IMG/VR virus record: IMGVR_UViG_3300031867_000002
Location: 96,001 to 160,000 of that record
Direction: 5' to 3' (one strand)
From: a virus
Lineage: Duplodnaviria > Caudoviricetes
Length of the DNA: 64,000 bases
Shown here: positions 5,195 to 58,503 of the stretch, in pieces
How positions within the stretch are numbered: the stretch's first letter is position 1
Layout: every line of letters begins with the position of its first letter
Translations under genes and position numbers: made by a program
Notes under the pieces: model-generated
The model's database searches: none
Seen by the model: the letters and a program-made list of their open reading frames with translations, nothing else
Told to the model about the DNA's origin: nothing

Positions 5195-5683
5195 TCATTC
5201 TGGTTCATTCTCTAAACCTCTAGTTCCAAAGTACTGAAGATAATTTTCCATATTATCATCAAACATTTGAATTCCAATCGGCGAGAATTGACCTTCTACA
5301 AAGTTTTCTGTATCGTCTGGTGTATGAGCCACATTACAAGCATAACCATAAGTTTCCATAATATACTTAATAAGTGTCTCTACTACATTAGATGCTGTCT
5401 CAGTAGAAAAGTCTACAAGTATCCAAACGTTCTTACCATTATAAGCTTCTCTAATAAGATTAATAAACTCTCTAAATGCTTCTGGTGTAGAAGCAAGATA
5501 GTTTACATACCACATATCAAACTCATAACAGTTAGTATTACCATAATATTGATTATTACGATAAGGATTAAGATACATAAGTTGTGGAATACACTCAAGC
5601 ATTGTATTAAAATTTACTATAGAGTTTATAACTACTCTGCTTCTACAATACTTCAGTGCGTCTGGGCTACCGAAGATTATCAT
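5195..5683 (-). CDS. Hypothetical protein, DUF488-like pattern; probable paralog of 5696-6265
   Basis: F..WY..YL....EA...F..L......GKNVWIL pattern; SD present. Confidence 0.4.
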   Translation of the reverse strand: MIIFGSPDALKYCRSRVVINSIVNFNTMLECIPQLMYLNPYRNNQYYGNTNCYEFDMWYVNYLASTPEAFREFINLIREAYNGKNVWILVDFSTETASNVVETLIKYIMETYGYACNVAHTPDDTENFVEGQFSPIGIQMFDDNMENYLQYFGTRGLENEPE

Positions 5684-5695
5684 ATAATCTCCTCC

Positions 5696-6265
5696 TTAAA
5701 ACTGATGAAATACAGATTCTTGAATAATTTGTGCATATCCATTATCATACAGAATATTTAAATTATTCATCATGAATTCTGGCATTACAGATTGATTATA
5801 TAATACGTTAGGATTATTCTGGATGTCTAAAGCACTATAAAATACTAGTCCGAATGCTAATCTAAGATAATTGAATAGAAACGTTACTATAGTTCCCATA
5901 TTTGAATTATTGTCAAAGTCAAAATACAATATATAATCCCAAGATTTTTCCATCAATCCAGCTACGAGTGCAATTATATATTCTACTACATCTTTATCTT
6001 CAGTAAGTTTTGCTTTATAAAGATAATAAAATTGGTCATAATTACCATCTATCAAATAATCCATAGCTCTAGGCGGTGGTAATAAGATAGGCGCACATAA
6101 AAAGTCTTCAATTCCTCTAGGACAAAAATCATCTATAGATATGACTTTGCATTTTGGAGCATCAATTCCTCTACTCTTATATGCAGCTACTTTAGTATTC
6201 ATTCTTGTTTGTAGAATGAAAGTTAACTCGTTAGGGTTTGTTGCAAATGAAATGTTTCCAATCAT
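5696..6265 (-). CDS. Hypothetical protein, DUF488-like pattern
   Basis: LLPP...F...YKAKL...V.EYI..L pattern; start placed at ATG 6265 after GGAGG. Confidence 0.4.
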   Translation of the reverse strand: MIGNISFATNPNELTFILQTRMNTKVAAYKSRGIDAPKCKVISIDDFCPRGIEDFLCAPILLPPPRAMDYLIDGNYDQFYYLYKAKLTEDKDVVEYIIALVAGLMEKSWDYILYFDFDNNSNMGTIVTFLFNYLRLAFGLVFYSALDIQNNPNVLYNQSVMPEFMMNNLNILYDNGYAQIIQESVFHQF

Positions 6266-6345
6266 AATAAATTCCTCCAATATATAATATTATAGGTAAG
6301 TTGAGACAAGTGTAGTTTTTGCCCCAACTTACCTATTGGGTTCAA

Positions 6346-8583
6346 TTACTTACGTTTCTTATTACGTTTACCCATATTCTTTTGAAACTTTTGTTGTTGT
6401 TTTTTAGACATTGGGTGAGTATTATATTCATAAATCGAACCAGCTGTATTAGTAGGAACTGTATAAGTGTCATCATCAATACTATCATCAAATACATCAT
6501 CTGCCACATTTCTTTCTGTATTCTCCTCAGAAATCGTCTCTGATTTATTTAATAGAATCTGCATAATTTCATCATCGATACTATCATCTGCCTCAGACGG
6601 AGTAGCTTGAAGTGCCTCTTCAGTATCAAAAACATCATCAACACTTACAGTTACACAATAAGATAATTCGGCAAGGTCTTTACTTCTGGTGAGTGTTACA
6701 GTCTTTGTCTTATCTGTGTTATAAGCTGCTTTATCAGCATTATTAAACATGATATCCATTTCTTTAATCTTATCCCTAAAAGCAACAAATGAGTTAGCTC
6801 TATTATAAGTCATAGTACCACTCAAATTAACATTAAATGGATAATCTTCAAATACAATTACCATTACGTTTCTAATAATGTCATAGACATCTTTATAGAA
6901 AGTATAGGAGTCTTGCCCAGGTGCTTCATCATGAAATGCAAATCTATAGCATACCGTTCTAAAGAACATTACCACAGATTCCATAAATGATAATGTGTTC
7001 TTTACATTGTTGATAAGACGACAGAATGCTGCGAAGTTATTACAGTATTCATAAGAATCATCTTCATTTTCTTCGGTATACATATCTGGGTATACTTTTT
7101 GTAAAAGTTTAGCAACAAGAGTATTATCATTGTCTGTACACAGGTCTTTATCAGAGATATATCCTGGTTCATACATGTTTAAATCAAGAGTTGCAACAGA
7201 AACTTCTCTAAACAGATTCATAGCATTTTCCATAGTAATATAATCTGTTTGATTACTACTCTTTTTCTTAAGAACACTAACAACCTTTTCGATATAACTA
7301 GCATCATAGTTATTAGTCTCGTAGTCTACTACAACATCTATAGCAAACTTATCAAACATTCTAACCGCTTCTTCTACTGATAAAGACTGTTGACTGTCAA
7401 TATCATAGAAGTGTTCTACTACTGGAGTAAAGGGAACTACAGGAGTTTTCTTTTCTACAATAGTAGGGCTTACTGTAACAACAGGCTGTTTAGGCTGTTT
7501 CTGTTCAACAACCTTAGGTCTTACGGAAGATTCAGGTTCTATAAGACCAGTCTCAGGATTATAAACACCAAGTACAACATCTTTAAATCCGATGTTTGGA
7601 ACTTTAGTATCTGGTTGAGGTTCATTAAAGTTAATAACCTCTTTAGGTCCTCTGAATCTATTTCTCTTGCTGTTAGGATTCGCATAATTACTTTTCCCAC
7701 CAACTTCTCTTACAGATTCGACTTCTCCAGTCTCCAGATTTACAACTTTGAATTTCATACTAATTTGCTCCTTTTCTGTTTTTTGTTGATAACCAACTGC
7801 TTGTAAAAGTTTGGAGATATCTTCTCCATCTTTCTTTGCGAGTGTTCTAGCAAAATGTGTTCTACCACATTCACTACAAACAATCATATTAAAACCCTCA
7901 TCATAATCTAACGTGCCACCGCATATCTGACCATTAACGACATCACGACAGAATCTTTTCGAGGGGTCTAATACATACATAGTAGGATAGTCCAATAACA
8001 CTGGACCGAATCCATTTCGATATCCCCAGTTCTTCATAGAACGAGTGCCGATATCTTCAATACCGATATCATTATTTCTAATCTTGAAATAAAGGATATC
8101 ATAAATATCTTGTGCATACTTCTGAAACTCTTGTACACTTTTAATAGGAACAATCTTCTCTATTATAGACAGAGTTCCACAAGGAGTCACATCAAATATC
8201 TTACAACAAAAAGGTTTTAATACATTTTGATTTACAAGCTCTCTAAGATTACTTGTAAAGCCTACTTGGTCTGTTGCTACTTTAGCAACTATTCTATCAT
8301 CGTAGATACACTCATAGGCTCTTCTATTAGTACCTCCTCCTATAAGTTTAAAACCTCTTGCTTCCATTAATTCGCCTATAAGACGATACTTTTCTTTTAC
8401 ATTACAATTTAAACCAGGTGACATAGCTAACTTGTGTAGATATGCTACGTCTTGTAATGTAAAGTAACTTAGTAATGGATTTACAGTATAATTGTCAAAC
8501 CATTTAATATATTCTTGTTGAAGTTTAGATATACCAATAGTATCTTTCTTATAGATATCAACAAGTTTATTATTAACTTTCAT
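6346..8583 (-). CDS. Protein kinase-like domain + Zn ribbon + long C-terminal region
   Basis: Gly-loop IGGGTNRRAY, VAKVA lysine, helix-C Glu (NLRE), catalytic loop EDIGTRSMKNWG, LLDY (DFG equivalent), then C..C/CSEC. Confidence 0.75.
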   Translation of the reverse strand: MKVNNKLVDIYKKDTIGISKLQQEYIKWFDNYTVNPLLSYFTLQDVAYLHKLAMSPGLNCNVKEKYRLIGELMEARGFKLIGGGTNRRAYECIYDDRIVAKVATDQVGFTSNLRELVNQNVLKPFCCKIFDVTPCGTLSIIEKIVPIKSVQEFQKYAQDIYDILYFKIRNNDIGIEDIGTRSMKNWGYRNGFGPVLLDYPTMYVLDPSKRFCRDVVNGQICGGTLDYDEGFNMIVCSECGRTHFARTLAKKDGEDISKLLQAVGYQQKTEKEQISMKFKVVNLETGEVESVREVGGKSNYANPNSKRNRFRGPKEVINFNEPQPDTKVPNIGFKDVVLGVYNPETGLIEPESSVRPKVVEQKQPKQPVVTVSPTIVEKKTPVVPFTPVVEHFYDIDSQQSLSVEEAVRMFDKFAIDVVVDYETNNYDASYIEKVVSVLKKKSSNQTDYITMENAMNLFREVSVATLDLNMYEPGYISDKDLCTDNDNTLVAKLLQKVYPDMYTEENEDDSYEYCNNFAAFCRLINNVKNTLSFMESVVMFFRTVCYRFAFHDEAPGQDSYTFYKDVYDIIRNVMVIVFEDYPFNVNLSGTMTYNRANSFVAFRDKIKEMDIMFNNADKAAYNTDKTKTVTLTRSKDLAELSYCVTVSVDDVFDTEEALQATPSEADDSIDDEIMQILLNKSETISEENTERNVADDVFDDSIDDDTYTVPTNTAGSIYEYNTHPMSKKQQQKFQKNMGKRNKKRK

Positions 8584-51436: not shown

Positions 51437-53242
51437 TTAGAACTCTGGATTAACAAACTTAACACTTTTATCTGGATGAATAGTAAGTTCATATAAGCAA
51501 AGAATATTTTCTTTTGAAATACCTCTTGTTGTAAAACCATTCATACCAAGAACTTGAATTTTTGCATTAGCTTGTTTCTCACATTCCTGATTAGCCTCAA
51601 TTGTGTATACTGGTTTAACAATTGCTGTATCACCGTCATAGTCCATACCCATAGCTTCAATAAGACCATTACTAATAGAAAGTGTATCTTCGAATACTGG
51701 AGATGTATTAGAGTTAATGTCAGTATCCTCAATAACAGGATACCATTTATATAATTTCATATTGTCTTCAAAATCAGATTGAATAACCATAGGCGCAGTT
51801 TTAACAGTAGACTTTATTCTAACTTTTGTAGGATACTGATTAAGATAGGAGTCAATTGGGAAACGAGTAATAAGACACATCTTATCTGATGTAACATCAC
51901 ATGCTGCCATATAGAATAAATCACACCATGTAATACGTCTATTTACTTTAAGAGTTTCTGAATAATCTTGTTTAGTCTCTTTATATTCTTCTGAATTATT
52001 AAGTTTATATCCAGTAAATCCCATCCAAAAATTTAAATTTTTCAAATCTTTAATTTCTTTACCAGAAATAGCTCCAACTATTTGATGATTCTTAGCACGT
52101 CTAGCAAACTCTTCTTTATCTACTGGAATTTCAATAGGAATAAAACGGTTGCTATAACCATGAATAAAACGTTCAATCTGTTTATCTATTTCTACATCAG
52201 AGAATGCAATCTGATAATCTACTAATGGCACCATGATAGATTCTTTTTCATTTATCATAATAGGATACTCTAGTTTACCAGCAAATCTATTCTCAAAGAA
52301 ACGTCTTAACCAGAATGATACAAATGGTTTAAAGCAACATAGTGCTGCAGCTAGTGGTAATGCACAGTGGTCCATGTCAATCATTAAATCATCTATATCT
52401 TCTCCACTTACATCGGGAGCAGACATTACCAAACGTGCACTATAATCTACTGTTTTATACATAGTACCACGTTTAATAAGACCCATTTTACCAGGTAAGT
52501 TAGCAGGTGTTTCTTTACCATTTATAGTAGTACCATTACCAAACCAATCAAAAATTTGTACTAAAATATTTTGTACTCTTGCTTTAGTAACGTCACTTAA
52601 TGTAAGTCCATATCCAGATGTTTCTTTAAGTGCTTTTGTAGCCATTATCAAACTACTATAGAGTTTGTTTATTTCTCCTACTCCAATACCAGCATCTCTA
52701 GTATCTACGTCTCTATAGTATGCTGGTATTACTACCCACTTATCTACCCACATCTTATTTTTTACTTTCTCAATAAAGTCAATTCTCTTATTTCTAGATG
52801 CAGAATCATTCTTCTTAAACTTAATCTTAGAGAAGTTTTTCTTTAACCAATCTATCCCAGTATCGCCATCATCACTTGGAACTAAATCACCTTTATCATC
52901 AATAATAAAATAATCTGTACCATTTACAATATCTGCAATCTTACCATTGAGTTTTAATAGTGTCTTATATACTAGTGGTTGTATAAATTGAGAACCTAAA
53001 TCTATATATGCATATATACCAGCACGTTCATTTTTTGTAATGCCAAATATTTCATTGCTTAATAATCCATCTTCTGTTGGTGTAGGACCATTAAAAAATA
53101 CTGGATTACTTACCTCTTTTAACAAGTTATTCTTAATAAACTTATCTATGTCTAATAACTCTGTTTTAAAGTGTTCAGTTGCAGCTTCAGTAAAATAATC
53201 AGTTTCATCCTTAGCAATATTAACAGCTTCATCTATAAGCAT
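51437..53242 (-). CDS. Multisubunit RNA polymerase beta'-like subunit, N-terminal half with catalytic site (probably virion RNAP)
   Basis: GLLSNEIFG, VIPAYYR, GKMGLIK...KTVDYSARLVMS, RFP, MGMDYDGD; ATG 53242 after AGGAGG; late-type promoter 53271-53283. Confidence 0.9.
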   Translation of the reverse strand: MLIDEAVNIAKDETDYFTEAATEHFKTELLDIDKFIKNNLLKEVSNPVFFNGPTPTEDGLLSNEIFGITKNERAGIYAYIDLGSQFIQPLVYKTLLKLNGKIADIVNGTDYFIIDDKGDLVPSDDGDTGIDWLKKNFSKIKFKKNDSASRNKRIDFIEKVKNKMWVDKWVVIPAYYRDVDTRDAGIGVGEINKLYSSLIMATKALKETSGYGLTLSDVTKARVQNILVQIFDWFGNGTTINGKETPANLPGKMGLIKRGTMYKTVDYSARLVMSAPDVSGEDIDDLMIDMDHCALPLAAALCCFKPFVSFWLRRFFENRFAGKLEYPIMINEKESIMVPLVDYQIAFSDVEIDKQIERFIHGYSNRFIPIEIPVDKEEFARRAKNHQIVGAISGKEIKDLKNLNFWMGFTGYKLNNSEEYKETKQDYSETLKVNRRITWCDLFYMAACDVTSDKMCLITRFPIDSYLNQYPTKVRIKSTVKTAPMVIQSDFEDNMKLYKWYPVIEDTDINSNTSPVFEDTLSISNGLIEAMGMDYDGDTAIVKPVYTIEANQECEKQANAKIQVLGMNGFTTRGISKENILCLYELTIHPDKSVKFVNPEF

Positions 53243-53343
53243 TGTAATATACCTCCTTATTATCATATAATTATTATAAAGTTCCACCTATCCATTCTAA
53301 CAAAACATACATATAAAATTGATTATAAAGGAGGATATTCTAT

Positions 53344-53904
53344 ATGAAGAAGCCTGTTTATTACTATCAGAATGTACAGCATTTTGATGATTATAATTGT
53401 TGTCCTAGACCTTGTCCACCGCCTCATCCATGCCCTCCTCCTCACCATCATTGTCATCCACATTATCATGGCAAAGTTGGTATTGTAGGAAGAACAGTAT
53501 TATCTGTTCGCTATGTGGATTGTCATGGTCACGTACAGACATTTGATATTCATGAGAATGAAACTTATGAGATTAAAGCAGTTAGTCAGACTCGTGGAGT
53601 TTGTACTTTTGCTGCAAGAATCATTGATTTTGAATGCTCTAAGGGTATTGAAAAGCTCATTGATAAACCTCATATGATTGATGTAACTGCAATTATTGTA
53701 GATTACTCTGATGCATATGAAAGCAAGCTTCTTAGAATTGGTATTGAGAATATCATTTCTATTAAGCCAGTAAAGTGCTTTGATGGTATGATTCCTGATT
53801 TTGTACCTCAGTGTCCAGAACCAGTATCTCCACCTCATCATTGTGAATGTAGCCCATCTGGTTATGAAGAATATGTTATTAATGACCCGTTTGAGATGGG
53901 TTAA
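53344..53904 (+). CDS. Hypothetical protein with Pro/His/Cys-rich termini
   Basis: CCPRPCPPPHPCPPPHHHCHPH; core paralogous to 25139-25525; late-type promoter 53304-53316. Confidence 0.65.
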   Translation: MKKPVYYYQNVQHFDDYNCCPRPCPPPHPCPPPHHHCHPHYHGKVGIVGRTVLSVRYVDCHGHVQTFDIHENETYEIKAVSQTRGVCTFAARIIDFECSKGIEKLIDKPHMIDVTAIIVDYSDAYESKLLRIGIENIISIKPVKCFDGMIPDFVPQCPEPVSPPHHCECSPSGYEEYVINDPFEMG

Positions 53905-53939
53905 TCGTTCTCCAAATCTAAGAAAGGAGATGAATTGTA

Positions 53940-56813
53940 TTGAAGAGATATTCTAATCTCGATATGACAGGTAATCAGATTACTAGAGTCGTAATTGAAC
54001 TTGTATCTACATTACCTGTTACTGACCTTAATATTGGTAGAATTGTATATCTTACTACAGATGATAAATTCTACGGTTATACATCTAATGGTTGGAAAGA
54101 AGTAACTCCAGATATGTTTCCTGGATATGCATATCTTGACCCTGCAGACGATAATACTAAACAGATTACTAAGTGGTCTGAACCTGGTACTACACCAGAT
54201 GCAGAAGATGACGGAGCTAAAGCTGTAGATGAGCATTCTCATAAAGATGATTATGTAACTGCAGCACAAGTTGCTACTACACTTATAAATCTTCGTAGAT
54301 TTGATGACCCAAGTATTGATAATACTAAGAATCATTACGGTTATCCAGTATACGATGTTAATGGTCAGCTTACTTCTATTGATACTACAAAAATTGTTGC
54401 AGATTATCAGTGGAGTGATTTACTGAAAAACAGAATGATGATTCCTAGAATTGCAGCAAATGGTAGTGTCGTAGAAAGTCCATTCTTTGTAGATGGTGGA
54501 TGGTATAAACTTACTACTAGAGACCAGTGGGAAACTATGATTCCTACATCTGGATGTGTAATTGAGAATATTAAACACATGGCAGAATATATTCTCGGAG
54601 TAGCATATGCTAATTTAGGTAATGGTATCTTTGCTACTAATTCAAGCGGTGAAACTATTTGGATTAGTACAACTGCTGGTAGTGCAGAAGAAAAGCTTCT
54701 TAGTGTTACAAGTAATGGTGTACAAGTACAACTTAATGTAACAACTACTGTAGATAGTAATAGCACTGATACTCAAATTCCTACTGCAAAAGCTGTATAT
54801 GATGCATTATCTTCTAGTAGTGGCTTAGATGATGCAAAAATAAATGTAATAGACGATGAAATAACACTGCACACTTTTGATACATTATCTGATGCTAAAG
54901 ACTATATTGATTCTAATAATAAACCAAAAAGTGTTATTATAGGCTCTAATGCTGGTGTAACTAGTATTGGTGATGGTACATTTGAAATGTGTGAATCTCT
55001 TACATCTATTACTATACCTGATAGTGTAACTAGTATTGGTGATAATGCATTTAGAAATTGTACATCACTTACATCTATTACTATACCTGATAGTGTAACT
55101 AGTATTGGTAATAATACATTTGATGGTTGTACATCTCTTACATCTATTACTATACCCGATAATGTAACTAGTATTTGTAATAATACATTTAGAAATTGTA
55201 CATCACTTACATCTATTACTATACCCGATAGTGTAACTAGTATTGATAGCAGTGCATTTGATGGTTGTACATCTCTTATATCTATTACTATACCCGATAA
55301 TGTAACTAGTATTGGTAATAGTGTATTTAGTGGTTGTACATCTCTTACATCTATTAATATACCTAGTAGTGTAACTAGTATTGGTAATGATGCATTTAGC
55401 GGTTGTGATATACTTTTACTCGATAACTATAAGTCTAGAACAGGTTATCCTTGGGGTGCTACTGATATATTAATTCATAACGAAAACGTTACTACTACTA
55501 TTAACGAGAATAGTACAGATAGACAAGTGCCTACAGCTAATAGTGTATATAATTTTATTATAGAAAACATGTTTTCTATAAAATTTGATATGGAATATCT
55601 AAAAGAATATATAGAAAGAACAATTACATCTATTAATATATCTGATAGTGTAACTAGTATTGGTGATGGTGCATTTAGGTATTGTAAATCTCTTACATCT
55701 ATTAATATACCTGATAGTGTAACTAGTATTGGTAGAGATGCATTTCGTAATTGTACATCACTTACATCTATTACTATACCTGATAGCGTAACTATTATTG
55801 GTAGCGGTACATTTTATGGTTGTAAATCTCTTACATCTATTACTATACCTAGTAGTGTAACTAGTATTAGTAGCAGTGCATTTTCTAATTGTAAATCTCT
55901 TACATCTATTACTATACCTAGTAGTGTAACTAGTATTAGTAGCAGTGCATTTTCTAATTGTACATCTCTTACATCTATTACTATACCTGATAGCGTAACT
56001 AGTATTGGTAGAGGTGCATTTGATGGTTGTGAATCTCTTACATCTATTACTATACCTAGTAGTGTAACTAGTATTGATGATAGTGCATTTAGGTATTGCG
56101 AATCTCTTACATCTATTACTATACCTAGTAGTGTAACTAGTATTAGTAGCAGTGCATTTGAAAATTGTAAATCTCTTACATCTATTACTATACCTGATAG
56201 CGTAACTAAAATTGGTGATGCTGCATTTAGGTATTGTACATCACTTACATCTATTACTATACCTGATAGCGTAACTAAAATTGGTAGCGGTGCATTTGAA
56301 AATTGTACATCACTTACATCTATTAATATACCTGATAGTGTAATTAGAATTGGTAGCAGTGCATTTAGCGGTTGTAAATCTCTTACATCTATTACTATAC
56401 CTGATAGTGTAACTAGTATTGGTTATGATGCATTTAGGTATTGTACATCACTTACATCTATTACTATACCTGATAGTGTAACTATTATTGGTGATGATGC
56501 ATTTGCTAGTTGTACATCTCTTACATCTATTAGTATACCTAGTAGTGTAACTAGTATTGGTAGCGGTACATTTGCTAGTTGTACATCTCTTACATCTATT
56601 AATATACCTAGTAGTGTAACTAGTATTGGTAATGATGCATTTGCTAGTTGTACATCTCTTACATCTATTACTATACCTAGTAGTGTAACTAGAATTGGTA
56701 GATATGCATTTGGTAGTAGGTCTATTACATCTATTACAATAAATAAACCAGAAGGAAGTATATCTGGTGCTCCTTGGGGAGCAACAAACGCTACAGTTCA
56801 ATGGACTGGATAA
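53940..56813 (+). CDS. Fibre/receptor-binding-like protein with BspA-type (LRR_5) leucine-rich repeats
   Basis: TTG start after AGGAG; N-terminus similar to 57169 protein; two PTAxxVY fibre motifs; 7 + 16 23-aa repeats [21 protein letters not shown]; PWGAT caps. Confidence 0.85.
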   Translation: MKRYSNLDMTGNQITRVVIELVSTLPVTDLNIGRIVYLTTDDKFYGYTSNGWKEVTPDMFPGYAYLDPADDNTKQITKWSEPGTTPDAEDDGAKAVDEHSHKDDYVTAAQVATTLINLRRFDDPSIDNTKNHYGYPVYDVNGQLTSIDTTKIVADYQWSDLLKNRMMIPRIAANGSVVESPFFVDGGWYKLTTRDQWETMIPTSGCVIENIKHMAEYILGVAYANLGNGIFATNSSGETIWISTTAGSAEEKLLSVTSNGVQVQLNVTTTVDSNSTDTQIPTAKAVYDALSSSSGLDDAKINVIDDEITLHTFDTLSDAKDYIDSNNKPKSVIIGSNAGVTSIGDGTFEMCESLTSITIPDSVTSIGDNAFRNCTSLTSITIPDSVTSIGNNTFDGCTSLTSITIPDNVTSICNNTFRNCTSLTSITIPDSVTSIDSSAFDGCTSLISITIPDNVTSIGNSVFSGCTSLTSINIPSSVTSIGNDAFSGCDILLLDNYKSRTGYPWGATDILIHNENVTTTINENSTDRQVPTANSVYNFIIENMFSIKFDMEYLKEYIERTITSINISDSVTSIGDGAFRYCKSLTSINIPDSVTSIGRDAFRNCTSLTSITIPDSVTIIGSGTFYGCKSLTSITIPSSVTSISSSAFSNCKSLTSITIPSSVTSISSSAFSNCTSLTSITIPDSVTSIGRGAFDGCESLTSITIPSSVTSIDDSAFRYCESLTSITIPSSVTSISSSAFENCKSLTSITIPDSVTKIGDAAFRYCTSLTSITIPDSVTKIGSGAFENCTSLTSINIPDSVIRIGSSAFSGCKSLTSITIPDSVTSIGYDAFRYCTSLTSITIPDSVTIIGDDAFASCTSLTSISIPSSVTSIGSGTFASCTSLTSINIPSSVTSIGNDAFASCTSLTSITIPSSVTRIGRYAFGSRSITSITINKPEGSISGAPWGATNATVQWTG
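54955..55407 (+). repeat. 69-bp tandem repeat block 1 (about 7 units)
   Basis: Recurrent CTTACATCTATTACTATACCxGATAGTGTAACTAGTATT. Confidence 0.9.
55624..56740 (+). repeat. 69-bp tandem repeat block 2 (about 16 units)
   Basis: Same unit; near-identical framework codons. Confidence 0.9.
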
Positions 56814-56828
56814 AGGAGATGTTAGAAT

Positions 56829-57152
56829 ATGTTATTAGAAAGTATTATTTCTAGAAATGTGTCATCTATTACTATACCTAATGGTGTAACTAGTATTGGC
56901 GATTATGCGTTTTTTTATTGTATGTCTCTTACATCTATTACTATACCTAGTAGTGTAACTAGTATTGGTAGCGGTGCATTTACTGGTTGTACATCTCTTG
57001 CATCTATTACTATACCTAGTAGTGTAACTAGTATCGGTGAAGGTGCATTTGCTAGTAATTCTATTACATCTATTACAATAAATAAACCAGAAGGAAGTAT
57101 ATCTGGCGCTCCTTGGGGAGCAACAAACGCTACAGTAACTTGGACTGGATAA
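56829..57152 (+). CDS. Mini BspA-LRR protein duplicating the C-terminus of the upstream gene
   Basis: Three repeats plus [30 protein letters not shown]; own SD AAGGAG. Confidence 0.8.
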
Positions 57153-57168
57153 TAAAGGAGGATAATAT

Positions 57169-58503
57169 ATGAAAGTTTTGACTAATCTTGACCTTGTCAA
57201 AAATCAACTTCTGAATGGTGTTATTCAGAAAGTTGCTGCTGACCCTACAACTAAACTTGCTGCAGGTTGGATTATCTTTAACACAGAAGAAGCTAAACTG
57301 AAGTATTACAATGGTGAAGAGTGGGTTACTATTGGTTCTGGTGGTGGTAGTTCTGTAGATATTGCTACAGTAATCAACTCTACTTCTACTAATTCTAAAG
57401 CTGCTGGTGCTAAAGCAGTATATGATTTTGTAACAGAAAATCTTGCTGATATTCGTGCTGTAGCAAATGGCGATGTACTCATTGTTGATTCTACAACTGG
57501 TAATATTGTAGGCATTGATGTAGATACTGTTGTTACTGAAGACTCTGTAAATCTTATTACTTCTGGTGCTGTATTTACTGCACTTCAAGAGGCTGTATCT
57601 ACTGTAGATGCAATGAAGTTCAAGGGCACTCTTGCTGCTGATGGTACTATTACTTCTACAGATACAAGTATCAATAATAAGAAGCTTACAACACTTACTG
57701 ATATTAAGAATGGTTGGACATTCAAGGCTGCTGCTGCTATTGATGCAGATGTTCTTGATATTGATGATAAGCCTATTGAAGTAGGTGATATGGTAATCGC
57801 TTGTGGTAATATGGCTACGTATGATGCTACCAAGTTCTCTGTTATCCAGATGAATCTTGATGGTGTTGTAATTGGTCCTGCATCTTCTAACGATGATACT
57901 ATTGTAGTATTCAATGGTGTTACTGGTAAAGCAGTTAAGGCATCTACTGTTACTAAGACACAGCTTGAAGCACTGTTTACTAGTCTTATCTCTTTACAAG
58001 CTGCAGCAGATGCAACCGATGTAGTATTATCTTCTTCTAATGCAGGTGACCCAACTACAGTAAAGCCAGGTCAAACAATCCAGGCTACTCTTAAGTCTAC
58101 TGGCGTAACAGCAAATACTTATGGTGATAACTCTGGTATTGTAGGTTCTACTATTGATGATAAGGACAGTTTTACTATTCCTCAGTTTACTGTAGATGAA
58201 AAAGGTCGTATGACTGCTGCAGAAGATAAGGTTATTACACTTAACCTTGCTTCTAAAGGTAATATCTATCGTAAATCTAATCCTGCTCTTACTGCAGATG
58301 CAAACGATGATTGTTCTTGGGTAATCGATGATATTGCTCTCGAAGTAAATCAGTATCCATCGGTAAACCTGTATGAAGTAAATACTGGTGAGATGGTATT
58401 AGCAGATGTATCTGTTAACTTTACTAATGAAGAAATCACCATTAGCTTTAAGCAGACTGGTGATATTTCTTCTGGTAGATATGTAGCAGTAATTGTAGTA
58501 TAA
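57169..58503 (+). CDS. Tail fibre-like structural protein
   Basis: NLDL.KNQ N-terminus, AKAVYD fibre motif, MKFKG, VDEKGR.TAA; T/S/A/G-rich. Confidence 0.65.
   Translation: MKVLTNLDLVKNQLLNGVIQKVAADPTTKLAAGWIIFNTEEAKLKYYNGEEWVTIGSGGGSSVDIATVINSTSTNSKAAGAKAVYDFVTENLADIRAVANGDVLIVDSTTGNIVGIDVDTVVTEDSVNLITSGAVFTALQEAVSTVDAMKFKGTLAADGTITSTDTSINNKKLTTLTDIKNGWTFKAAAAIDADVLDIDDKPIEVGDMVIACGNMATYDATKFSVIQMNLDGVVIGPASSNDDTIVVFNGVTGKAVKASTVTKTQLEALFTSLISLQAAADATDVVLSSSNAGDPTTVKPGQTIQATLKSTGVTANTYGDNSGIVGSTIDDKDSFTIPQFTVDEKGRMTAAEDKVITLNLASKGNIYRKSNPALTADANDDCSWVIDDIALEVNQYPSVNLYEVNTGEMVLADVSVNFTNEEITISFKQTGDISSGRYVAVIVV

What the first reader, a model, noticed from the sequence alone, without database searches (positions are those of the whole stretch)
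53940..57152. Variable LRR receptor-like system: fixed-framework 69-bp repeats with hypervariable codons plus a spare C-terminal cassette
Seen: 23 BspA-type repeats in two capped blocks, each preceded by a fibre motif. Framework codons are nearly identical, while about five positions vary (GDGT/GDNA/SSSA/GRDA/GYDA; EM/RN/DG/RY/SN/AS) and recur in new combinations. The next gene is 3 repeats plus an almost identical ~100-nt cap, so recombination could swap the tip or change repeat number. Most variable codons are NNT/C, reachable from AAT/AAC by changes at A. Known: BspA LRRs mediate protein binding/adhesion. Inference: a recombination-diversified adhesin or receptor-binding protein, conceptually like lamprey VLR assembly. 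DGR involvement is possible but no reverse transcriptase is in this window.
Basis: partly seen in the sequence, partly recalled or inferred. Interest (0 to 1): 0.75.

Follow-up and report, generated by a model that had tools for sequence, protein, structure and literature searches.

The report
Recombining LRR tip on phage fibre
A giant phage from ruminant gut builds the outer part of a probable host-binding tail fibre from 23 almost identical leucine-rich repeats. A few exposed residues in each repeat change fast. Ordinary recombination, not a reverse transcriptase or a programmed switch, adds, removes and swaps the repeats, while sister phages put a retroelement-mutated lectin or an enzyme in the same slot.

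Summary
Observation confirmed. Gene 53940-56813 (957 aa) holds 7+16 BspA/TpLRR-class 23-aa repeats in two capped blocks. Gene 56829-57152 holds 3 repeats plus a 94%-identical cap.

Framework codons are position-specifically identical. About ten codons vary, four of them strongly (pN 0.51 against pS 0.12).

Interpretation partly supported.
- **Fibre/receptor-binding role:** well supported by context and by relatives.
- **DGR:** excluded here. The complete genome has no RT, there is no template repeat, and changes are not A-specific. One sister phage, however, carries a genuine DGR-diversified tip in this slot.
- **VLR-like assembly:** not supported. There is no cassette library and no recombinase, and the "spare cassette" is a conserved, translatable gene.
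- **Recombination:** real. Relatives carry 2-16 terminal repeats and 1-3 blocks.
- **Tip exchange:** whole tips (LRR, DGR lectin, GDPD, GDSL esterase, phosphoesterase) are exchanged at a conserved fibre motif.

The scan has already met sister loci on other genomes with the same reading.

Verdict: a striking but mechanistically ordinary mosaic fibre locus using an unusual fold. Interest 0.5.

The parts
53344..53904 (+). Conserved 186-aa gene directly upstream (context and synteny anchor), function unknown
   Evidence: 95-97% identical in all relatives and always followed by the fibre gene. No Pfam or PHROG hit.
53923..53929 (+). Shine-Dalgarno site (AAAGGAG) of the fibre gene, 10 nt before the TTG start
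   Evidence: Read from the sequence. The TTG aligns with the ATG of the orthologues.
53940..56813 (+). Modular LRR fibre gene, 957 aa
   Evidence: ORF; LRR_5 E=2.7e-222; phrog_35892 and phrog_18805.
53940..54104 (+). N-terminal fibre anchor, about 55 aa
   Evidence: Shared with the 444-aa neighbour (38% over 39 aa, E=1.8e-4 within the genome; alignment A1). The neighbour's N-terminus matches an annotated tail fiber protein of Streptococcus phage Javan290 (49% over 61 aa, E=3e-7).
54105..54734 (+). Long shaft domain, present in the window phage but absent from the short-N-terminus relatives
   Evidence: The same shaft (86-100% identity) is fused to non-LRR tips in P0009-P0011, and at 48% identity to a GDSL-tipped protein in P0012. 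The AF2 single-sequence model failed (pLDDT 33).
54735..54803 (+). Fibre motif 1, the junction at which tips are exchanged
   Evidence: tblastn of motif 2 hits here at 65% (E=1e-7). Homologues P0009-P0011 diverge from the window protein immediately after it.
54804..54932 (+). N-cap of LRR block 1 (approximate limits)
   Evidence: Conserved in all relatives ahead of their first block, and repeated ahead of the middle block of L002 and P0013.
54933..55415 (+). LRR block 1: 7 units of 69 nt
   Evidence: Register and translation.
55404..55484 (+). Internal C-cap of block 1
   Evidence: Conserved after every internal block in every relative, including distant L012.
55485..55559 (+). Fibre motif 2
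   Evidence: Conserved in relatives; in L003 and L012 the non-LRR tips start right after it.
55560..55625 (+). Helical linker and N-cap of the terminal LRR module
   Evidence: Helices at model residues 18-27 and 36-46 of the AF2 model. Conserved in L001, L002, L010 and P0013.
55626..56729 (+). LRR block 2: 16 units of 69 nt (12 in another assembly)
   Evidence: AF2 gives a regular solenoid at pLDDT 84.9. Top Foldseek hits are 4fs7, 4gt6, 4h09 and 4cp6.
55833..56108 (+). Units r4-r7 of block 2 (276 nt), absent from the ENA assembly of the same phage
   Evidence: Deleting this stretch reproduces the 865-aa protein P0008 exactly.
55825..55883 (+). 59-nt perfect direct repeat, left copy (breakpoint region)
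56101..56159 (+). 59-nt perfect direct repeat, right copy
56730..56813 (+). Terminal C-cap and stop codon of the fibre gene
56814..56818 (+). Shine-Dalgarno site (AGGAG) of the small gene
   Evidence: Read from the sequence.
56829..57152 (+). Stand-alone mini-LRR gene, 107 aa: short N-cap, 3 units, same C-cap
   Evidence: LRR_5 E=3.6e-26. Intact with 7-8 units in L001, L002 and L010. Absent where the tip is not LRR (L003, L012).
57069..57152 (+). C-cap of the small gene, homogenised with the fibre gene's cap
   Evidence: 5 of 84 differences within the window genome. 0 of 84 within L002 and within L010 against at least 4 between genomes. 7 informative sites pair caps by genome against 1 by orthology.
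57169..58503 (+). Neighbouring 444-aa fibre-like gene with the same N-terminal anchor and a fibre motif
   Evidence: phrog_8309 and phrog_1325.

Best explanation
The two genes are the host-recognition end of a tail-fibre-type protein of a complete 224.6-kb AR9-like jumbo phage. It comes from an anaerobic, probably Gram-positive, ruminant-gut host.

**Architecture.** The 957-aa protein has an N-terminal anchor shared with the neighbouring fibre-like gene, then a shaft, then two BspA/TpLRR-class solenoids. Each internal solenoid is closed by a cap and followed by a conserved fibre motif. The 107-aa gene is a free-standing copy of the terminal module. Each repeat offers 4-6 fast-evolving exposed residues (the x's of IgxxAFxxCx). 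These stack into a stripe along the solenoid and form the presumed ligand-binding surface.

**How diversity arises.** No dedicated enzyme is involved.
1. Point substitutions at those codons are favoured by selection.
2. Unequal homologous recombination among 69-nt units that share 45-74-nt perfect matches duplicates, deletes and reshuffles units.
This keeps them able to exchange tips.
4. Whole tips are swapped between co-circulating relatives at the fibre motif.

**Shown:** the fold, the selection contrast, gene conversion, variation in repeat and block number, tip swapping, and the absence of a DGR or recombinase.

**Inferred:** virion location, receptor binding, the ligand, and whether recombination is frequent within a population.
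For: **Phage context**
- Complete genome with direct terminal repeats.
- Split RNAP beta' subunit.
- Virion structural PHROGs on both sides.
- NrdD.

**Fibre identity**
- N-terminal anchor shared with the 444-aa neighbour and with an annotated tail fiber protein.

**Fold**
- LRR_5 at E=2.7e-222.
- AF2 pLDDT 84.9, with Foldseek hits to 4fs7, 4gt6, 4h09 and PcpA.

**Selection**
- Framework pN/pS is 0.20.
- The ten variable codons have pN 3.05 times the overall pS (bootstrap 2.6-4.0). The four core codons reach 4.2 times.
- The same positions are hypervariable in the relatives, Spearman 0.89.

**Recombination**
- Terminal blocks have 2, 6, 8, 9 and 12/16 units across relatives; genes have 1-3 blocks; small genes have 3, 7 and 8 units.
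- The window's units are more alike in framework (1.29 differences per 36 nt) than they are to other genomes' units (2.0-2.8).
- Variable modules are in linkage equilibrium.
- Caps are identical within L002 and within L010 over 95 and 93 nt. Seven informative sites against one pair caps by genome.
- An exact 4-unit indel lies between 59-nt perfect repeats.

**Tip swapping in the same slot**
- DGR-diversified tip in L003, P0015, P0016 and P0017: 13 of 13 TR/VR mismatches are at TR adenines, and the RT matches RVT_1 at 1.2e-16.
- GDPD in L012 at 1.2e-21.
- GDSL esterase and phosphoesterase/lectin tips on the window-type shaft.
Against: - No direct evidence that either protein is in the virion or binds a host. 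The fibre assignment rests on a short N-terminal similarity and on context.
- The fibre motif has no Pfam hit.
- The 4-repeat indel may be an assembler collapse, because the 59-nt repeat exceeds common k-mer sizes. All three assemblies of this strain may come from one sample.
- L011 is 100% identical to L002 over 5.9 kb. This shows no array change there, but it also has no independent information value.
- The pS estimate rests on few synonymous sites.
- The role of the small gene is unknown.
- The location of the variable residues on the convex side is inferred from the class consensus and DSSP, not from coordinates.
Confidence: 0.7

Rival explanations
1. A selected contingency locus. Nucleotide identity of the framework is maintained because it makes the array recombine at high frequency during each infection cycle. 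Every burst would then contain fibres with new repeat numbers, orders and tips, making this an RT-free functional counterpart of the DGR that sister phages carry in the same slot.
For: - Position-specific framework codons are identical across about 100 units in five genomes.
- Perfect matches of 45-74 nt exist inside the array.
- A 4-unit indel separates two assemblies of one strain.
- Variable modules are in linkage equilibrium.
- DGR and LRR tips occupy the same slot.
Against: - Framework pS among units (0.11) is about the level of divergence between these phages at single-copy genes (0.13-0.44). Recent common descent plus ordinary concerted evolution therefore suffices.
- In L001, units are no more alike within the genome than between genomes.
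- The indel may be an assembly artefact.
- No population read data were available.
Confidence: 0.15
2. A virion-displayed or free adhesin that binds something other than the bacterial receptor, for example plant fibre, mucus or biofilm matrix. It would keep phages where hosts are, as proposed for Ig-like decoration domains.
For: - BspA-class LRR proteins of gut bacteria are general surface adhesins, as shown by the structural neighbours 4fs7, 4gt6 and PcpA.
- The small gene lacks any fibre anchor.
- The jumbo phage Goslar is proposed to carry a cloud of accessory fibres with LRR/beta-helix domains.
Against: The alternative tips in the same slot are classic host-envelope-directed modules: a DGR lectin-type tip, a GDPD, and GDSL esterases. 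The N-terminus is of tail-fibre type.
Confidence: 0.1
3. DGR mutagenesis, present or recent, created the variable codons.
For: - 88% of core variable codons are NNY, and the residues used (N, D, S, G, Y, A) resemble DGR output.
- A sister phage has an active DGR at the locus.
Against: - No RVT_1 match in this complete genome or in the complete L002 genome.
- No template copy of the repeat exists anywhere else in the genome.
- 12 of 20 consensus-A columns never vary, 8 variable columns contain no A in any unit, and A>G (50) is about as common as G>A (44).
- The NNT bias is genome-wide.
- In the sister phage the DGR targets a non-LRR domain.
Confidence: 0.02
4. Programmed cassette switching, either by a site-specific recombinase (Mu Gin, P1 Cin or shufflon type) or by VLR-like copy-choice assembly from silent cassettes.
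For: Two genes share a near-identical 3' end.
Against: - No resolvase/invertase or tyrosine recombinase in the genome.
- Both genes are on the same strand, and there are no significant inverted repeats.
- There is only one extra copy. It is a translatable, conserved gene with its own Shine-Dalgarno site.
Confidence: 0.02

Closest known systems
BspA / TpLRR-class LRR surface proteins (Pfam LRR_5, PF13306; solved examples 4fs7, 4gt6, 4h09, PcpA 4cp6, TpLRR 6mlx)
   Same: Same family and fold. Same 23-residue consensus LxxLxLxxxLxxIgxxAFxx(C/N)xx (PMC2946307). Same presumed role as a binding or adhesion module.
   Different: - Here the module sits on a phage fibre scaffold between fibre motifs.
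- The units are nearly identical in DNA, with variation focused on the x's of the variable segment.
- There is no signal peptide and no cell-wall anchor.
Mosaic tail-fibre / receptor-binding loci of tailed phages (conserved N-terminus, exchangeable distal modules, as in T-even gp37/38 and lambdoid stf)
   Same: - A conserved anchor and shaft.
- Distal tips swapped between relatives at a conserved junction motif.
- A small accessory gene immediately downstream.
   Different: - The tip is a tandem LRR array that also evolves internally by unit gain, loss and shuffling.
- The downstream gene is a paralogue of the tip rather than a recognisable chaperone.
Diversity-generating retroelements on phage fibres (Bordetella phage BPP-1 Mtd; gut phage DGRs, PMC6199706, PMC10743442)
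   Same: The goal is the same: variation of a fibre tip's binding residues, drawn mostly from N, D, S, G and Y. A sister phage carries a real DGR in the orthologous slot.
   Different: There is no RT, no TR/VR pair and no adenine specificity. Variation is spread over many repeats instead of one C-terminal lectin-type segment.
Lamprey variable lymphocyte receptors
   Same: An LRR scaffold with capped ends, a fixed framework and hypervariable exposed residues. Recombination between similar LRR units takes place.
   Different: - VLRs are assembled somatically from hundreds of silent cassettes with a cytidine-deaminase-linked mechanism, and they vary on the concave sheet.
- Here there is one extra paralogue and germline-scale change, and the variation lies in the variable (convex) segment.
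TAL effector repeat arrays
   Same: Near-identical tandem DNA repeats in which a few hypervariable residues per unit carry specificity. Both evolve by unit duplication, deletion and reshuffling through homologous recombination.
   Different: The fold differs, and the ligand is DNA for TALEs. No one-unit-one-ligand-element code is known or shown here.
LRR/beta-helix domains on DUF7941 accessory fibre proteins of the jumbo phage Goslar (bioRxiv 10.64898/2026.04.21.720040)
   Same: A jumbo phage in which predicted host-recognition proteins join a virion anchor to an LRR-type binding domain.
   Different: - The anchor domain and the phage lineage differ (Chimalliviridae against an AR9-like clade).
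- That work does not report near-identical repeat arrays or DGR alternation.

Membership tests
LRR_5 / TpLRR-class leucine-rich repeats | Significant match to PF13306 above the gathering score | tested here: met
   E=2.7e-222, 725.9 bits for the 957-aa protein; E=3.6e-26 for the 107-aa protein.
LRR_5 / TpLRR-class leucine-rich repeats | 23-25-residue unit with consensus LxxLxLxxxLxxIgxxAFxx(C/N)xx | tested here: met
   The 21 canonical units fit the consensus position by position. The consensus comes from PMC2946307.
LRR_5 / TpLRR-class leucine-rich repeats | Solenoid fold like solved members | tested here: met
   AF2 pLDDT 84.9. Foldseek hits 4fs7 (E=4.6e-17, TM 0.68/0.78), 4gt6, 4h09 and 4cp6.
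Diversity-generating retroelement target | Reverse transcriptase encoded in the element or genome | tested here: not met
   No RVT_1 match in the complete genome. The control sister locus L003 scores 1.2e-16 to 1.9e-20.
Diversity-generating retroelement target | Template repeat paired with the variable repeat | tested here: not met
   All 53 BLAST hits of the array and tip DNA lie inside the locus; there are none elsewhere in the 224.6 kb.
Diversity-generating retroelement target | Substitutions confined to adenine positions | tested here: not met
   12 of 20 A columns are invariant, 8 variable columns lack A in any unit, and A>G is 50 against G>A 44. For contrast, L003 shows 13 of 13 mismatches at TR adenines.
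Lamprey-VLR-like cassette assembly | Library of silent donor LRR cassettes flanking an incomplete gene | tested here: not met
   There is only one further copy, a complete gene with its own Shine-Dalgarno site and start codon. No other copy exists in the genome.
Lamprey-VLR-like cassette assembly | AID/APOBEC-type deaminase driving assembly | not tested
   No search was run; the cassette-library feature had already failed.
Invertase- or shufflon-type tail-fibre switches (Mu Gin, P1 Cin, R64) | Site-specific recombinase plus inverted crossover sites | tested here: not met
   No PF00239 or PF00589 match in the genome. Only weak chance inverted repeats were found, and both genes are co-directional.
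Phage tail fibre / receptor-binding protein | N-terminal attachment region homologous to known fibre proteins | tested here: inconclusive
   The neighbour's N-terminus matches an annotated tail fiber protein (49% over 61 aa, E=3e-7). The LRR gene's N-terminus matches the neighbour's (38% over 39 aa, E=1.8e-4). The chain of evidence is short and indirect.
Phage tail fibre / receptor-binding protein | Distal module exchanged among relatives for other host-envelope-directed modules | tested here: met
   DGR tip (L003, P0015-P0017), GDPD (L012), and GDSL and phosphoesterase tips (P0009-P0012).
Phage tail fibre / receptor-binding protein | Presence in the virion and binding to the host | not testable with these tools
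   The phage is uncultured. This needs proteomics, EM and adsorption assays.

The most novel reading that the evidence does not exclude
The array may be a genuine enzyme-free diversification device. On this reading, selection keeps the 69-nt framework identical at the DNA level so that the replication and recombination machinery of the jumbo phage continually reshuffles, expands and contracts the repeats. It would also exchange the tip with the downstream paralogue. Each phage population would then carry a standing library of binding surfaces. Within one clade, this device and a DGR-mutated lectin tip would be interchangeable solutions for the same fibre slot.
Probability: 0.2. Interest if true: 0.75.

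Novelty: new variant of a known kind. Interest (0 to 1): 0.5.

Why it matters
Receptor-binding proteins set phage host range, and for gut and rumen phages they are mostly unknown. This locus shows three things.

- A bacterial-adhesin fold (BspA/TpLRR) serves as a modular fibre tip in uncultured jumbo phages.
- Within one clade the same slot holds a recombining LRR array, a DGR-mutated tip, or wall-polymer-degrading enzymes. That gives a natural side-by-side comparison of different routes to host-range change.
- The hypervariable stripe lies on the variable (convex) segment, with a nearly fixed Thr/Ser concave sheet. This departs from the usual LRR rule and is a testable structural prediction.

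There is also a practical point. Such arrays break or collapse in short-read assemblies, so fibre genes of this type are probably under-reported and mis-sized in virome catalogues.

Tried and rejected
- **DGR:** rejected.
- **Invertase or shufflon switch:** rejected.
- **Silent cassette library:** rejected. The two other LRR_5 ORFs in the genome (74625-75194 and 76313-76906 in genome coordinates) share no DNA with the array.
- **Read-through of the fibre gene's stop into the small gene:** rejected. A second in-frame stop lies in the 15-nt spacer, and the frame relation is not kept in L010.
- **AF2 model of the N-terminal 353 aa:** failed (pLDDT 33) and was not used.
- **Pfam on the fibre motif, the shaft and the 444-aa neighbour:** nothing significant.
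- **Nucleotide search of annotated phages:** one weak uncultured hit only.
- **Protein search of annotated phages:** 34 uncultured gut phage records, all unannotated or "hypothetical".
- **Literature:** searches for BspA/LRR_5 phage receptor-binding proteins found no description. The SPLASH preprint's LRR_5 signal is an unrelated MITE.
- **DNA of the ENA and Logan contigs:** could not be fetched. The indel was therefore reconstructed from the protein alone.
- **Atomic mapping of variable residues:** not possible, because model coordinates are not exposed.


Full report
**What is there**

The window is bases 96001-160000 of a complete 224,632-bp phage genome with direct terminal repeats and about 31% G+C. 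It carries a phiKZ/AR9-type split RNA polymerase beta' gene at 51437-53287 on the minus strand. It also carries an anaerobic ribonucleotide reductase, with virion structural protein families on either side of the finding.

The finding consists of two co-directional genes, each with a good Shine-Dalgarno site.
- The first runs 53940(TTG)-56813 and encodes 957 aa.
- The second runs 56829-57152 and encodes 107 aa.
- Both are BspA-type LRR proteins: PF13306 at E=2.7e-222 and 3.6e-26.

**Anatomy**

In order, the large protein has:
- a ~55-residue N-terminal anchor
- a ~210-residue shaft
- a fibre-type motif (54735-54803)
- an N-cap
- seven 23-residue units (54933-55415)
- an internal cap (55404-55484)
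- a second copy of the fibre motif (55485-55559)
- a helical linker
- sixteen units (55626-56729)
- a terminal cap (56730-56810)

The small gene is a shortened copy of the terminal module. It has a 12-residue N-cap, three units and the same cap, with 5 differences in 84 nt. TRF reports the 339-nt duplication at 86%.

**The variation is not random**

In 21 canonical units the framework codons are position-specifically identical. For example, the three Thr positions use ACA, ACT and ACT without exception, and Leu23 is always CTT.

| Codon set | Result |
|---|---|
| 13 framework codons | pN/pS = 0.20 |
| 10 variable codons | pN = 0.37, 3.05 x the overall pS of 0.12 (bootstrap 95% 2.6-4.0) |
| 4 core codons (14, 15, 18, 19) | pN = 0.51, 4.2 x the overall pS |

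The same positions are the variable ones in about 80 units from four relatives (Spearman 0.89). The variable modules are in linkage equilibrium: 16 alleles at codons 13-15 and 10 alleles at codons 18-19 give 20 combinations in 21 units.

The units fit the published TpLRR-class consensus LxxLxLxxxLxxIgxxAFxx(C/N)xx (PMC2946307). The fast positions are the x's of the variable segment that forms the non-concave side. The model's concave strand (unit positions 2-4) is almost fixed Ser/Thr. The expected "one concave face" is thus not what the sequence suggests. This is an inference from class knowledge and DSSP, not from coordinates.

**Not a DGR here**

- The complete genome has no reverse transcriptase, and neither does the complete genome of relative L002.
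- There is no other copy of the repeat DNA in the genome.
- Twelve of twenty consensus-A columns never vary, eight variable columns have no A in any unit, and A>G (50) balances G>A (44).
- The NNT/C habit of the variable codons (88%) mirrors genome-wide codon bias: 54% T at third positions in the non-repeat part.

**Not a programmed switch**

- There is no serine or tyrosine recombinase.
- There are no meaningful inverted repeats, and both genes share an orientation.
- The "spare cassette" is an intact gene with its own ribosome-binding site. It is intact in all four LRR-tipped relatives examined, with 3, 7, 7 and 8 units.
- It is absent exactly where the fibre tip is not LRR.

**What relatives show**

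Relatives were found through the N-terminus and the flanking genes.

| Relative | Architecture |
|---|---|
| L001 | two blocks, about 10 + 9 units |
| L010 | two blocks, 13 + 6 units |
| L002 and P0013 | three blocks; terminal block of about 8 and 2 units |
| L003, P0015, P0016, P0017 | anchor and one LRR block of 2-8 units, then after the fibre motif a ~420-residue non-LRR domain |
| L012 (more distant) | a degenerate LRR block, cap and fibre motif, then a GDPD phosphodiesterase (E=1.2e-21) |
| P0009-P0012 | the window-type long shaft, joined right after fibre motif 1 to a phosphoesterase/lectin-like module or to GDSL-type esterases |

In L003 and its kin, the last 120 nt of the non-LRR domain are a bona fide DGR variable repeat.
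- The template repeat lies 263 nt downstream.
- All 13 mismatches fall on template adenines.
- An RVT_1 reverse transcriptase follows.
- The variable segment differs in each of the four proteins.

The locus is therefore a mosaic fibre gene whose tips are exchanged at a conserved motif. All the alternative tips are of kinds that address bacterial envelopes. That is the strongest argument that the LRR modules are receptor-binding parts. The anchor adds to it: the neighbour's N-terminus resembles an annotated streptococcal phage tail fibre protein.

**Recombination inside the array**

- Framework distances are lowest among the window's own units: 1.29 per 36 nt, against 2.0-2.8 to other genomes.
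- Their synonymous divergence (0.11) is no greater than that of single-copy genes between these phages (0.13-0.44). This fits a recent expansion or homogenisation of block 2.
Between genomes they differ at 4-11 of 84 sites.
- Seven informative sites pair caps by genome and one pairs them by orthology. That is gene conversion.

**The four-unit indel**

The exact 107-aa protein and both exact flanking proteins also occur on a 224,370-bp ENA contig. There the fibre gene encodes 865 aa. Removing window 55833-56108, which is units r4-r7, reproduces that protein exactly. The breakpoints lie in a 59-nt perfect direct repeat.

This is what unequal homologous recombination would produce. It is also what an assembler with k below 59 would produce. 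A third (Logan) assembly of the same strain breaks at both edges of the array. The unit count of block 2 (16 or 12) is therefore unsettled.

**Verdict**

- The receptor-binding and recombination parts of the interpretation are supported.
- The DGR and VLR-like parts are not.

The best explanation is an ordinary evolutionary mechanism: diversifying selection, unequal crossing-over, gene conversion and modular tip exchange. It acts on an unusual fold for a phage fibre.

No description of BspA-class LRR phage receptor-binding proteins was found in the searchable literature. A 2026 preprint predicts LRR/beta-helix domains on accessory fibres of the jumbo phage Goslar. Thirty-four uncultured gut phage records carry unannotated LRR_5 proteins.

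Earlier notes of this scan on sister genomes reached the same reading. I tested the claims independently here. The open and more novel possibility is that the array is a selected, high-frequency, enzyme-free diversification device. It needs read-level population data.

Noticed in passing
L003:5204-6937: A complete DGR cassette in a sister phage: VR 5204-5323, TR 5467-5586 with 13 of 13 mismatches at TR adenines, an 87-aa ORF that may be the accessory protein, and an RT at 6002-6937. It occupies the slot that holds LRR block 2 and the small LRR gene in the window.
   Followed up: yes
window 53344-53904: A 186-aa ORF with a Pro/His/Cys-rich N-terminal stretch. It is 95-97% conserved in every relative and always lies directly upstream of the fibre gene. 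No family match. It could be a fibre-associated or metal-binding assembly factor.
   Followed up: partly
window 57169-58503: A 444-aa gene with the same N-terminal anchor as the LRR fibre gene and its own copy of the fibre motif. This is probably a second fibre protein of the same attachment class.
   Followed up: partly
genome coordinates 74625-75194 and 76313-76906 (upstream of the window): Two small ORFs with several ~25-residue repeats containing a GYP motif, followed by one or two LRR_5 units. They share no DNA with the array.
   Followed up: partly
window 51437-53287 (-): The RNAP beta' gene is far more diverged from the relatives (pS 0.38-0.44) than the adjacent genes (pS 0.13-0.23). 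This indicates a mosaic history around the fibre locus.
   Followed up: no
L012:6238-7779: In the distant relative, the gene after the GDPD-tipped fibre is a 513-aa fibre-motif protein with weak metallophosphoesterase and H-type lectin matches. The same module is fused to the window-type shaft in P0009.
   Followed up: partly
L005:1-120 and the Logan contigs of SRR9036512: Contigs of several assemblies start or end exactly at the edges of the LRR array. Arrays of this type systematically break short-read assemblies.
   Followed up: partly
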